Shown here piece after piece: positions 21,001 to 24,000 of a DNA stretch of 64,000 nt. Position 1 is the first letter of the stretch. Every line of letters begins with the position of its first letter. Location of the stretch: NCBI GenBank assembly GCA_024137785.1, contig JAHRHZ010000048.1, forward strand, positions 10,386,168 to 10,450,167, given 5' to 3'. Position numbers: made by a program. The stretch is from Ginglymostoma cirratum (taxonomy: Eukaryota).

Positions 21001-24000
21001 TCTTCTATTTTGTAATTCATTGGACCTCAGCACTGAGGGGCAACAGTATTATTACTAAGGGTACACGGAGACTAGATTTTAACCATATTCAAAAAAAAGT
21101 ACACTAGTTATCTAAGAACATCATTTGCCTGAAATTTGTCTTTCAGGCAGTACTTGTTCCAGAGAATGGTCAGTTATTAATGCAAACGACCTTTAAGTAG
21201 CGTCACAAAGTAAGACTTGGTGCAACATTTTCTGCAACTTTACAAAACATCAGACATATTGATAGATGGCAACCTTTTTTTTGAAGTTTGGAGCAGATAA
21301 AGAGTGACCCATGCACTGATTCCTCGGCTATCCAGTCCGATATGCTTATGTCGGTTTTTTGAAAGAAATGCCCAATTAGTTCTAATCTGCAGCTTTTTAC
21401 CTATAGCCTGGTATATGTTTCTTTTTCTAGTGTCTATCCAGCTCACTTTTGAAAGTTACTACTGAAGCTGCTTCTGTTATCTTTTCAGGCCGAGAATTCC
21501 CGAGGAAGGAACACAGATAGGGAATCAATTACTAGTTGCCTGTGACTCTTCATCATGAATGTTCAGGTAGAACACTGACTATGTAATCTGTACCCTCCAA
21601 GTGTTTGGAGCACCGATACAGAAGACATCCTCTAACTTTTCTCATATGCTCAGATAGAAACAATTGATTCTACCAGTGTTTAGTATTCAGAATATGGAAC
21701 AATTCCCTAGACTTATTAAATTCACTGATAACTGTTGCCATTATTAACTGTTTTAGCACTAGTTTTGAAGTGGAAATATTGTATTTGGGCATATTTGTTA
21801 CCAACAAATTGAAATCTTTGATATAGACAAAATTACTGCCAAAGCATTTTGTTTCTGTGATAACAAGGTGTAGACCTGGATGAACACAGCAGGCCAAGCA
21901 GCATCAGAGGAGTAGGAAAGCTAACGTTTCGGGTCGAGACCCTTCGTCAGAAATGGGGGAGGGGAAGGGGATTCTGAAAAAAATAGGGAGAGAGGGGGAG
22001 TTGGATAGAAGATGGATAAAGGAGAACATAGGTGGAGAGGAGGCAGACAGGTCAAAGAGGCGGGGTGGGAGCCAGTAAAAGTGAATGTAAGTGGGGAGTT
22101 AGGGAGGGGATAGGTTGGTCCAGGGAGGATGGACAGGTCAAGGAGGCAGGGTGAGGTCAGTGGGTAGGAGATGGGGATGGGGCTTGAGGTGGGAGGAATA
22201 GTTAGGGAGGCGGGGACGAGCTAGGCTGCTTTTGGGATGCAGTCGGGGGAGGGGAGATTTTGAAGCTTGTGAAGTTCACATTGATACCCTCGGACTGCAG
22301 GGTTCCCAAGAGAAATATGAGATGCTGTTCCTGCAGCCTTCGGGCGGTATCATTGTGGCAATGCAGGAGGTCCAGGATGCACATGTCGTCCAAGGAGTGG
22401 GAGGGGGAGTTGAAATGGTTCTTTACTGGGAGGTTCAGTTGTTTGTTGAGAGCATAGGTGTTCCACAAAGCAGTCCCCAAGGAACACCTACGCTCGGTTC
22501 GCAACAAACAACTACACCTCCCAGTCGTGGACCATTTCAACTCCCCCTCCCACTCCTTGGACGATATGTCCATCCTGAGCCTCCTGTGTTGCCACAATGA
22601 TGCTACCGGAAGGCTGCAGGAACAGCATCTCACATTTCGCTTGGGAACCCTGCAGCCCAAGGATATCAATGTGGACTTCACAAGCTTCAGAATCTCCCCT
22701 CCCCGACCGCATCCCAAAACAAGCCTAGCTTGTCCCCGCCTCCCTAACCATTCCTCCTGCCTCAAGCCCCACCCCCATCTCCTACCCACTAGCCTCATCC
22801 CGCCTCCTTGACCTGTCCGTCCTCCCTGGACCAACCTATCCCCTCCCGAACTCGCCACCTACATTCATCTTCATTGGCTCCAACCCCGCCTCTTTGCTCT
22901 GTCTCTTCTCGACCTATCTCCTACTTTATCCACCTTCTATCCACCTCCCCTGTCTCCCTATTTATTTCAGATTCCCCTTCTCCTCCCCCATTTCTGAAGA
23001 AGGGTCTCGACCTGAAACGTCAGCATTCCTGCTCCTCTGATGCTGCTTGGCCTGCTGTGTTCATCCAGCTCTACACCTTGTTATCTCAGACTTGCCAGCA
23101 TCAGCAGTTCCTACTACCTCTGTAACATTTTGTTTCTGTGAATTTTTATTAATCCTCATACAAGTATTTACATATTTTTACATGGTGGAAGTACATGTTA
23201 TAATTTTTCATTCTGCATTGCCCCTTATCAAACTGTATGACAGATTTTATGATCAACAAAAATCAAATGTAATTAAGTTTCCAGGTATTAGTAAATATTT
23301 CTGAGTTAAATGGGTTATTTGTTTGATAGGAACAGGTTGTATCTGAATCTATTTTTGAGGGCAAGCAATGTTGAAGGTTTTGCTTTGGTTCTCCAGTAAA
23401 GAAACCTCTAAACACACTGAAAGGTAAGAATATGGTAGCAAAACAGGGAAGCATATTATAAGTGTAACCATTTTGGTGAAAATGAACAAAATGGAAATAA
23501 TTAATTTTCTTTCAAGTTTTAGCTATTTATATATGAATTGAAACTAAAACACATGCACAGTCTTTGATACACTCACTGGCAAGCTGACTTTTCAAAATAC
23601 CTGCTTGCACATCTGTCTGGAGAGAGCAGGCTTGATTAGAAATTGGGTTAGTGACCCCAGAAGAACTGAAGAGACTTCCAAAGGGAGAAGATGGCCAAGC
23701 AGAAGGGTGGCATGTTGGAACAGTGGTTAGCACTGTTGCCTCACACCATCAGGGAAACGGATTTGATTCCAGCCTTGGATGGCTGTGTGGAGTTTGAGCA
23801 TTCTTCCTGTGTCTGAAACCAGTGCTCCAGTTTCTTCCCACAGTCCAAAGATATGTGCATTAGATGGATTGGCCATGCTAACTTGCCCAGTAGTGTCCAG
23901 GAATGCATAGGTCAGGTGGATTGGCCATGGTAAATGTGGGATTATGGGGATGGGTCTGAATGGATGCTCTTTGGAGGGTTGATGCAGTCTTGATGGTCTG

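What the first reader, a model, noticed from the sequence alone, without database searches (positions are those of the whole stretch)
21845..23141. 1.26-kb Penelope palindrome inserted as one event, with outward-facing hammerheads
Seen: two ~605-bp arms (roughly 90% identical by eye), a 16-nt spacer, one arm with and one without the ~35-nt tail, one 16-bp TSD around the whole, and a hammerhead motif near each outer end on opposite strands. Known: inverted arrangements occur in PLEs. Inference: the insert formed by fold-back or twin priming. Transcription from either strand gives a ~600-bp dsRNA hairpin with a ribozyme near its 3' end, a possible siRNA source or editing substrate. The G-run tract at ~21955-22255 also has quadruplex potential.
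Basis: partly seen in the sequence, partly recalled or inferred. Interest (0 to 1): 0.65.

Follow-up and report, generated by a model that had tools for sequence, protein, structure and literature searches.

The report
Head-to-head Penelope retrotransposon double insertion
Two dead, truncated copies of a Penelope-like retrotransposon sit head to head inside one 16-bp target duplication; this layout is already known to be typical of such elements, so the locus is a clean example and not a new kind of thing.

Summary
An exact 16-bp direct repeat (21845-21860 and 23126-23141) brackets a 1265-bp insert made of two inverted arms. The arms share 604/605 nt at 89% identity.

The arms are 3' ends of a Penelope-like element (PLE). 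They cover the C-terminal half of the GIY-YIG endonuclease ORF, a C-rich pseudo-LTR, a minimal hammerhead box and, on the right arm only, a 40-nt tail. The closest proteins are shark RT+GIY-YIG proteins at 85% and 80% identity.

- The "16-nt spacer" is element sequence. It belongs to the left arm, so the arms abut directly.
- Simple fold-back cannot produce this layout.
- No Rfam hammerhead model matches, and helix I is only about 2 bp.
- No canonical G-quadruplex motif exists.

Best explanation: one integration event. Both staggered nicks primed reverse transcription, one at the "no-tail" start site and one at the "tail" start site. The two cDNAs were then joined end to end.

This matches published PLE anatomy (PMC3846280, PMC8557442) and in vitro behaviour (PMC11167929). 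It is a new member of a known kind, of low interest. Transcription, small RNAs, editing, the empty site and genome-wide counts stayed untestable here.

The parts
21845..21860 (.). Left copy of the 16-bp target-site duplication
   Evidence: Exact repeat of 23126-23141 and the only two copies in the window. The flanking 100 nt are 71-72% A+T, against 61.5% for the window.
21861..22480 (-). Left arm: 620-nt 5'-truncated PLE 3' end, sense on the - strand. It ends at the 'no-tail' terminus (...CCTTGTTA).
   Evidence: Arm alignment, terminal-module alignment, protein alignment.
21923..21950 (-). Minimal hammerhead box of the left arm: CUGACGA, bulged A, helix II GGGU/ACCC with loop CUCG, GAAAC, GUU
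   Evidence: Pattern matches with 0 of 100 shuffles matching. No Rfam hit.
21955..22201 (-). C-rich pseudo-LTR / 3' UTR of the left arm.
   Evidence: 49.5% G on the + strand and 21 runs of G>=3. No canonical quadruplex motif. Family stop codon at 22202-22204.
22202..22481 (-). Remnant of the C-terminal half of the GIY-YIG endonuclease ORF in the left arm. It is frameshifted by a 5-nt deletion.
   Evidence: Translations and alignment to shark PLE proteins.
22465..22480 (-). It is the extra 5' sequence of the left arm, coding LGDCFV.
   Evidence: Aligns with LGDRFA / LGDCFI of P0001-P0005.
22481..23125 (+). Right arm: 645-nt 5'-truncated PLE 3' end, sense on the + strand, carrying the tail
22482..22747 (+). 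Endonuclease C-terminal ORF remnant of the right arm (EHLRSVRNKQ...FTSFRI), then a 1-nt deletion. The family stop codon lies at 22745-22747.
   Evidence: 85% and 80% identity to whale-shark and zebra-shark proteins that carry GIY-YIG (both) and RVT_1 (P0001, below its Pfam cut-off).
22994..23021 (+). Minimal hammerhead box of the right arm: CUGAAGA, bulged A, helix II with a G.U closing pair, GAAAC, GUC
   Evidence: No Rfam hit.
23086..23125 (+). 40-nt PLE tail, present on the right arm only
   Evidence: By my count, it matches the tail of the solo copy at 6603-6783 at 33 of 40 positions. Both end in CTGTAA.
23126..23141 (.). Right copy of the 16-bp target-site duplication

Best explanation
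This is a single, old, dead insertion of a shark-type Penelope-like element made of two 5'-truncated copies joined head to head.

Inferred mechanism:
1. The element's GIY-YIG endonuclease nicked both strands 16 bp apart, leaving 3' overhangs.
2. Each 3'-OH primed reverse transcription of element RNA.
3. The top-strand primer started at the upstream ('no-tail') start site and made the left arm.
4. The bottom-strand primer started 40 nt further downstream ('tail' site) and made the right arm.
5. After about 620 and 645 nt, one polymerase jumped from the RNA onto the 3' end of the other cDNA and copied it back to the target. This fused the two arms directly with about 1 nt of overlap. Filling the overhangs gave the 16-bp duplication.

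Shown here: the anatomy, the element identity, the direct junction and the two different 3' termini. Inferred: the order of events and the template jump.

The locus needs no function. If transcribed it would form a long imperfect hairpin RNA.
For: Identity:
- The arm ORF is 85% and 80% identical to shark proteins that carry GIY-YIG (both) and RVT_1 (P0001, 22.7 bits, below its 29.6 cut-off).

One event:
- One exact 16-bp TSD brackets both arms, with no target DNA between them.

Both outer ends are genuine element termini:
- The left arm stops at ...CCTTGTTA. The solo copy at 12516-12604 stops at the same site (...CCTTGT) and has its own 16-bp TSD.
- The two internal restarts in the copy at 6603-6783 also fall at that site.
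- The right arm and the 6603-6783 copy both carry the full tail ending in CTGTAA.

Junction:
- The unpaired 16 nt are left-arm coding sequence.

Literature:
- An anole PLE protein cleaves and extends both strands. It starts reverse transcription at two internal sites whose spacing corresponds to the 30-40-bp tail (PMC11167929, Main text read).
- An inverted 5'-truncated copy, a tail at only one end and one TSD around the whole are described as typical (PMC8557442 passages; PMC3846280 passages).

No sign of two subfamilies:
- Of 16 residues that differ between the arms in 64 shared codons, the right arm keeps the shark majority state at 7, the left arm at 5, and neither at 4. I counted these by hand.

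The arms differ by 11%, so a missed-adapter or fold-back assembly artefact is unlikely.
Against: - No second example of a palindrome exists in the window, and no eukaryotic genome collection was available. The structure's frequency, the empty site and read support are unchecked.
- If all 11.9% divergence arose after insertion, about 1.9 differences are expected in the 16-bp TSD pair. None is seen; my calculation gives P about 0.13. This is mild tension and would ease if the two arms came from different source RNAs.
- The near-equal 5' truncation points, 17 nt apart, are not predicted by two independent cDNAs. They need an added assumption: synchrony, a shared RNA 5' end, or one RNA copied by two polymerases.
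- The left junction has 8 of 10 matches between the target and the start of the tail. Only 114 of 200000 random 10-mers did as well. This could also be read as a microhomology-mediated 5' join rather than a priming site.
- The anole study reports no homology requirement.
Confidence: 0.72

Rival explanations
1. Snap-back (self-priming) hairpin. A single first-strand cDNA folds back on itself and is copied, giving two arms from one priming event.
For: The arms are nearly equal, differing by 17 nt at the inner end. The unpaired 16 nt look like a hairpin loop. Arkhipova et al. 2013 favour self-priming to explain palindromic junctions (passages).
Against: The loop is contiguous with the left arm in sense, so the left arm must be the template strand. 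The right arm ends in a 40-nt genuine tail that the left arm lacks. Copying the left arm would instead run into an inverted copy of the target flank. With the right arm first, the loop would have the opposite orientation. There is no base-pairing at the turn beyond about 1 nt.
Confidence: 0.07
2. Copy of a pre-existing palindrome. A read-through transcript of an older head-to-head PLE pair was reverse-transcribed once from the tail site. Its 5' end was then joined by microhomology.
For: It would explain 11% arm divergence together with a perfect TSD (my calculation). It would also explain the 8 of 10 microhomology at the left junction.
Against: The left end would have to fall by chance within about 2 nt of the family's canonical no-tail terminus. 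That terminus is seen independently at 12516-12604 and twice inside 6603-6783. Reverse transcription through a 600-bp hairpin RNA is also required. No other copy of the junction is in the window.
Confidence: 0.08
3. Two independent insertions: a second PLE copy landed next to the first in the opposite orientation.
For: PLEs tend to insert into or beside their own copies (PMC11167929). In the terminal 90 nt the arms are no closer to each other than to the solo copies.
Against: There is only one TSD, it brackets both arms, and no target sequence lies between them. The second event would have had to hit the exact 5' junction and make no duplication. The arms show similar decay (7, 5 and 4 polarised residues).
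Confidence: 0.04
4. Assembly artefact: a chimeric or fold-back read produced a false palindrome.
For: PLE tandem and inverted structures are known to trouble assemblies (PMC8557442).
Against: The arms differ at 65 positions and by 5 indels. One arm has the tail and the other does not. An exact TSD flanks the whole in unique DNA. Artefactual palindromes have near-identical arms.
Confidence: 0.02

Closest known systems
Inverted pseudo-LTR / head-to-head insertion structure of endonuclease-containing Penelope-like elements (Arkhipova et al. 2013, PMC3846280; Craig et al. 2021, PMC8557442)
   Same: An inverted 5'-truncated copy lies head to head with another copy. One TSD surrounds the whole insert. 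A 30-40-bp tail is present on only one of the inverted ends. A hammerhead motif sits in the pseudo-LTR. The target is AT-rich.
   Different: There is no full-length body or direct pseudo-LTR here, only two truncated arms of almost equal length (620 and 645 nt). The arms abut directly, with no palindromic overlap at the junction. The TSD is 16 bp, against 8-10 bp in the rotifer examples read.
In vitro behaviour of the anole Poseidon element PAc (Frangieh et al. 2024, PMC11167929)
   Same: Both target strands are cleaved and extended. There are two adjacent internal RT start sites whose spacing equals the tail. A hammerhead lies some tens of nucleotides upstream of the start sites.
   Different: That work shows initiation only, not joined products. 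It reports no homology between primer and start site, whereas the left junction here shows 8 of 10 matches. In PAc the hammerhead has a recognisable stem I and overlaps the ORF start. Here helix I is about 2 bp and the box lies after the ORF stop.
L1 twin priming
   Same: The second nicked strand also serves as a primer, giving an inverted segment inside one TSD.
   Different: In L1 the inverted part is a different, more 5' piece of the same RNA, primed internally by chance annealing. Here both arms are the same 3'-terminal region, each starting at a dedicated element start site.
Minimal hammerhead ribozymes of metazoan PLEs (Cervera and De la Pena 2014, PMC4209133)
   Same: The core boxes, an extra nucleotide between A9 and G10.1, a G10.1-C11.1 pair (left arm and the solo copy at 12.5 kb), a palindromic ACGU in place of helix III, and location in the pseudo-LTR.
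   Different: Helix I is about 2 bp, against the usual 4-5 bp; 2 bp was described for D. virilis. Helix II is 4 bp rather than 7-8 bp. Activity is unknown.

Membership tests
Penelope-like element (endonuclease-containing) | Single ORF with a reverse transcriptase followed by a C-terminal GIY-YIG endonuclease | tested here: met
   The arms hold only the last ~85 codons. Those codons are 85% and 80% identical to shark proteins P0001 and P0002. Pfam finds GIY-YIG in P0001, P0002 and P0005 (only P0001 reaches the family's curated cut-off) and RVT_1 in P0001 (22.7 bits, below its 29.6 cut-off). The arm ORFs alone give no Pfam hit.
Penelope-like element (endonuclease-containing) | Optional 30-40-bp tail at only one end of the insert | tested here: met
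   A 40-nt tail on the right arm only. The same tail is on the solo copy at 6603-6783.
Penelope-like element (endonuclease-containing) | Inverted 5'-truncated copy adjacent head to head, with one TSD around the whole | tested here: met
Penelope-like element (endonuclease-containing) | Hammerhead motif in the pseudo-LTR | tested here: met
   The box is present in both arms and in the solo copy at 12577-12604. This is a motif-level test only.
Hammerhead ribozyme | Conserved core CUGANGA ... GAAA ... UH | tested here: met
   3 matches in the window, 0 in 100 shuffles.
Hammerhead ribozyme | Helix II closed by G10.1-C11.1 | tested here: met
   G-C in the left arm and in the solo copy at 12.5 kb. 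G.U in the right arm and in 2 solo copies, a CpG-to-TpG change.
Hammerhead ribozyme | Helix I of 4-6 bp between the sequence 5' of C3 and the sequence 3' of the cleavage site | tested here: not met
   Only U-A and U.G can form, read. MFE folds show no three-way junction.
Hammerhead ribozyme | Match to a curated covariance model (Rfam hammerhead families) | tested here: not met
   No hit at gathering score or at E<=10 in local scans.
Hammerhead ribozyme | Self-cleavage | not testable with these tools
   Needs in vitro transcription of monomer and dimer constructs, with and without the element protein.
L1-type twin-priming inversion | The inverted and direct segments are adjacent, non-identical parts of one RNA | tested here: not met
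   Both arms cover the same 604/605 nt.
Snap-back hairpin cDNA | The second arm is a copy of the first, so it cannot contain sequence the first lacks | tested here: not met
   Each arm has private element sequence: 16-17 nt at the inner end of the left arm and a 40-nt tail at the outer end of the right arm.

The most novel reading that the evidence does not exclude
The locus may be the footprint of two polymerases of one dimeric PLE particle travelling in convoy on a single RNA.

The polymerase primed by one target strand starts at the upstream (no-tail) site and leads. The polymerase primed by the other strand starts 40 nt behind it, at the tail site, and follows while displacing the first cDNA. 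When the leader stops, the follower is only about 17 nt behind. It then jumps onto the leader's cDNA end.

This would explain three things at once:
- why only one arm has the tail;
- why the tail-less arm reaches 17 nt further 5';
- why the two truncation points almost coincide.

It predicts that, genome-wide, the tail-less arm of head-to-head pairs is always the one that extends slightly further at the junction. With one example, the observed order had a 50% chance of arising anyway.
Probability: 0.15. Interest if true: 0.5.

Novelty: new member of a known kind. Interest (0 to 1): 0.22.

Why it matters
The locus adds no new biology. It is a well-preserved natural product of the poorly understood late steps of Penelope-like element integration. 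It shows both RT start sites used in one event, a direct cDNA-to-cDNA junction, and a layout that rules out simple fold-back. A genome-wide census of such pairs could test whether the in vitro finding that both strands are cleaved and extended explains the inverted structures seen in genomes. For annotation, the 16-nt "spacer", the G-rich tract and the hammerhead box should all be read as ordinary parts of the element.

Tried and rejected
- Rfam over the whole window at gathering score and three local scans at E<=10 gave no hammerhead family. The MIR831 match (53 bits, gathering score 100) is the palindrome centre scoring as a generic long hairpin.
- Pfam on the arm ORFs themselves gave nothing. 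Identity came only from full-length shark relatives.
- Folding the terminal modules alone gave z-scores of +0.52, +0.23, +0.52 and -0.31, no better than shuffles. The cofold of two hammerhead segments gave extended duplexes, not a hammerhead dimer. Neither speaks for or against catalysis.
- A canonical quadruplex search found none.
- I looked for a host gene around the insert. Pfam on 150 of the 386 stop-to-stop ORFs of at least 50 aa gave 0 hits at E<=0.001. The 150 were all ORFs between 68 and 29909, except 18 in the LINE body and 11 inside the palindrome. The remaining 207 ORFs beyond 29.9 kb were not scanned. Whether the insert lies in an intron stays unknown.
- I looked for TSDs around the solo copies at 3452-3548 and 6603-6783, and around the composite 3452-6783. 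No shared 8-mers were found.
- Pyatkov et al. 2004 (PMC522041) is not held, so its endonuclease data are cited only through other papers.
- Supplementary figures were not seen and may bear on the comparison. These include the RT start-site maps in PMC11167929 and the fish min-hammerhead consensus in PMC4209133.
- No eukaryotic genome, read or small-RNA collection was available.
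Full report
**What is there**

CATTTTGTTTCTGTGA occurs at 21845-21860 and again at 23126-23141. These are its only two occurrences in the window, even with up to two mismatches allowed. Between the two copies lie 1265 bp that form an inverted repeat. Four collinear blocks of 85-92% complementarity span 21854-23090, and a self-inverse blastn gives 86.5% over 1241 columns.

A global alignment of the shared parts (604 and 605 nt) gives 533 matches, 65 mismatches (42 transitions, 23 transversions, 7 of CpG type) and 13 gap columns in 5 events. 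That is 89.1% identity and a K2P distance of 0.119. About 580 bp on each side are unique within the window. The immediate flanks are 71-72% A+T, against 61.5% for the window. The window holds no N.

**What the arms are**

The right arm is in sense on the + strand and the left arm on the - strand. Each begins inside an ORF (EHLRSVRNKQLHLPV..HFNSPSHSLDDM..FRLGTLQP..FTSF) and runs through the family stop codon (22745-22747 on the right, 22202-22204 on the left). A stretch of about 250 nt follows that is 47% C in sense. Then comes a hammerhead-like box, and about 62 nt later the end of the arm.

The arm ORFs give no Pfam hit on their own. A search among longer proteins found five relatives. The two best are predicted proteins of whale shark and zebra shark, at 85% and 80% identity over all 71 residues. 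Pfam finds GIY-YIG in P0001, P0002 and P0005 (only P0001 reaches the curated cut-off) and RVT_1 in P0001 (22.7 bits, below its 29.6 cut-off). Reverse transcriptase followed by a C-terminal GIY-YIG endonuclease is the defining architecture of endonuclease-containing Penelope-like elements (PMC8557442 and PMC11167929). From these hits I infer that the window comes from a cartilaginous fish. It is not human, because by those papers this element class is absent from mammals.

**The "spacer"**

The 16 unpaired bases at 22465-22480 are not filler. On the - strand they read LGDCFV, in frame with the EHL that starts the paired part of the left arm. They align with LGDRFAEHL (P0001, P0002) and LGDCFIEHL (P0004) of the shark proteins. 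The left arm therefore reaches 16-17 nt further 5' than the right arm. The two arms abut at 22480/22481 with at most 1-2 nt of overlap. Arm lengths are 620 nt (left) and 645 nt (right).

**The two outer ends**

The right arm continues 40 nt (23086-23125) past the point where the left arm stops. The window holds three more short copies of the same 3' module, all on the - strand: 3452-3548, 6603-6783 and 12516-12604.

- The 12.5-kb copy is 89 nt long and has its own exact 16-bp TSD (12500-12515 and 12605-12620). It ends at ...CCTTGT, the same place as the left arm (...CCTTGTTA).
- The 6.7-kb copy has two internal restarts at that same place. It then carries a full tail that matches the right-arm tail at 33 of 40 positions by my count. 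Both tails end in CTGTAA.
- The 3.5-kb copy ends 12 nt into the tail.

The family therefore has two recurrent 3' termini 40 nt apart, and the palindrome uses one at each end. This is the "tail" described for Penelope-like elements. It is a 30-40-bp extension present at only one end (PMC8557442) or on one of the inverted pseudo-LTRs (PMC3846280). For an anole element it has been traced to two adjacent internal start sites of reverse transcription (PMC11167929).

**The hammerhead**

Both arms, and the 12.5-kb copy, contain CUGANGA, one extra A, GGGUCU(C/A)G(A/G)CC(C/U), GAAAC and GU(C/U). There are 3 matches in the window and none in 100 shuffles.

Several hallmarks of the minimal hammerheads of metazoan Penelope-like elements are present (PMC4209133, parts 1-2 of 4 read):
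- the extra base between A9 and G10.1;
- the G10.1-C11.1 pair (left arm and 12.5-kb copy; G.U elsewhere, a CpG-to-TpG change);
- the palindromic ACGU in place of helix III.

Against this:
- Helix I can form only two pairs, U-A and U.G.
- No Rfam hammerhead model matches at any threshold tried.
- The terminal modules fold no better than shuffles.
- The minimum-energy monomer instead pairs CUGAYG with CGUYAG.

I therefore call it a Penelope-type minimal hammerhead motif of unproven activity. The published motifs of this kind cleave poorly and need dimers or the element protein. The motif is conserved in another shark: the C-terminus of P0002 (...LMKGLRPKRQ) appears to be a read-through translation of the box (my reading).

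**How it arose**

Three simple routes can be set aside.

1. Two separate insertions would leave two TSDs or target DNA between the arms. There is one TSD and no such DNA.
2. An assembly artefact would give near-identical arms, not 65 substitutions, 5 indels and a one-sided tail.
3. Snap-back of a single cDNA fails on geometry. The unpaired 16 nt are continuous with the left arm, so the left arm would have to be the first strand. The right arm would then be its copy and would run into an inverted copy of the target instead of the family tail. With the right arm first, the loop would have the opposite orientation.

What remains is priming from both nicks. The top-strand 3'-OH at the right edge of the 16-mer primed the left-arm cDNA at the no-tail site. 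The bottom-strand 3'-OH at the left edge primed the right-arm cDNA at the tail site. One polymerase then switched from the RNA to the 3' end of the other cDNA and copied it back to the target. That fuses the arms directly and yields the 16-bp duplication from the two 3' overhangs.

The anole protein cleaves and extends both strands in vitro, unlike R2 and L1. End-to-end template jumping by retrotransposon polymerases is recalled knowledge and was not read here.

A rarer alternative is that a transcript of an older palindrome was copied once. It would explain the perfect TSD beside 11.9% arm divergence (P about 0.13 for no TSD change; my calculation). It would also explain the 8-of-10 match between the left flank and the start of the tail (114 of 200000 random 10-mers did as well). 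But it needs the left end to fall by chance on the canonical no-tail terminus.

**Same or different source**

I found no sign of two subfamilies. In 64 shared codons the arms differ at 16 residues. Against the majority of the five shark proteins, the right arm is ancestral at 7, the left at 5, and neither at 4 (hand count). In the terminal module the arms differ at 6 positions. The three solo copies side with the right arm at 3, with the left at 1, and are split or uninformative at 2. This fits independent decay from one consensus-like sequence. It cannot separate one RNA from two similar RNAs.

The almost equal truncation points, 17 nt apart, are not explained by two independent cDNAs. Possible reasons are synchrony of a dimeric particle, a shared RNA 5' end, or two polymerases following each other on one RNA. 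With one example I can only list them.

**Downstream claims**

Either transcript would fold into a long imperfect hairpin. In both, 1130 of 1265 nt are paired (541 Watson-Crick and 24 G.U pairs). The longest uninterrupted helices are 46 bp and 37 bp, and the MFE values are -1085.9 and -1080.5 kcal/mol. That is a property of any 89%-identical inverted repeat. Nothing here shows transcription. I found no Pfam-detectable exon within the 150 ORFs scanned between 68 and 29909, so the intron question is open. In such a hairpin the hammerhead box would be buried in duplex. The G-rich tract is simply the antisense of the C-rich pseudo-LTR, and it has no canonical quadruplex motif.

**Verdict**

The locus is real, correctly located and correctly named. 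It is a textbook-type Penelope-like insertion, and all its features have been described: head-to-head inverted copies, one tail, one TSD and a pseudo-LTR hammerhead. The 2024 in vitro work provides a plausible mechanism. I searched the literature. I found no description of this shark family's palindromes, but I did not look for one specifically. I rate it a new member of a known kind, of low interest. It has modest value as a natural product that excludes simple fold-back and shows both start sites used in one event.

Noticed in passing
window 3452-3548 (-), 6603-6783 (-), 12516-12604 (-): Three solo copies of only the last ~90-180 nt of the same element. Their 5' ends all fall within 8 nt of each other, inside the CUGAUGA..AGGG start of the hammerhead box. 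This suggests a preferred stop for the cDNA or a short SINE-like template rather than random truncation.
   Followed up: partly
window 6603-6783 (-): This solo copy contains two internal re-iterations that break at the no-tail terminus (...CCTTGT / ...CTTGTTATC) before the final tail. It looks as if reverse transcription restarted there several times.
   Followed up: partly
window 3452-6783 (-): A LINE with an apurinic-type endonuclease and RVT_1 (ORFs 3689-6397) is bracketed in the same orientation by two of the solo PLE modules. Its downstream region runs straight into the 3452-3548 module. No TSD was found for either module or for the composite. It could be a chimeric retrocopy or a pseudo-LTR capture of the kind noted in PMC3846280.
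   Followed up: partly
window 2158-2358 (+) versus 3650-3852 (-): A 203-column inverted duplicate (95% identical) of a piece near the LINE's 3' end lies about 1.3 kb downstream of it. It does not include the LINE's last ~100 nt.
   Followed up: no
window 23033-23044 with 23093-23105: In the right arm the segment CUGAUGCUG pairs with CAGCAUCAG of the tail, enclosing the no-tail terminus in the loop (MFE). In the 6.7-kb copy the tail side reads CAGUAUCAG, which keeps the pairing through a G.U. It may correspond to the stem-loop at the RT start site described for the anole element.
   Followed up: no
window 21845-21868 and 12500-12524: Both no-tail junctions show imperfect matches between the target and the first 10 nt of the tail: 8 of 10 at the left arm and 6 of 10 at the 12.5-kb copy. 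Random expectation is 114 and 4609 of 200000 respectively. Part of this follows from how the boundaries are defined.
   Followed up: partly
window 25372-25761 (-): Weak integrase zinc-binding domain match (Integrase_H2C2, E=0.0022, below the Pfam cut-off). It lies in a 25-29.5 kb cluster of long ORFs and is possibly a decayed LTR element.
   Followed up: no
window 23710-23980 versus 47125-49735 and 54349-54497: A dispersed repeat about 580 bp to the right of the palindrome has diverged copies (66-86% identical) elsewhere in the window. It is not classified.
   Followed up: no
protein P0002: The zebra-shark predicted protein runs through the element's stop codon region, across the C-rich pseudo-LTR and into the hammerhead box. 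It is therefore a gene-model read-through of a transposon copy.
   Followed up: no
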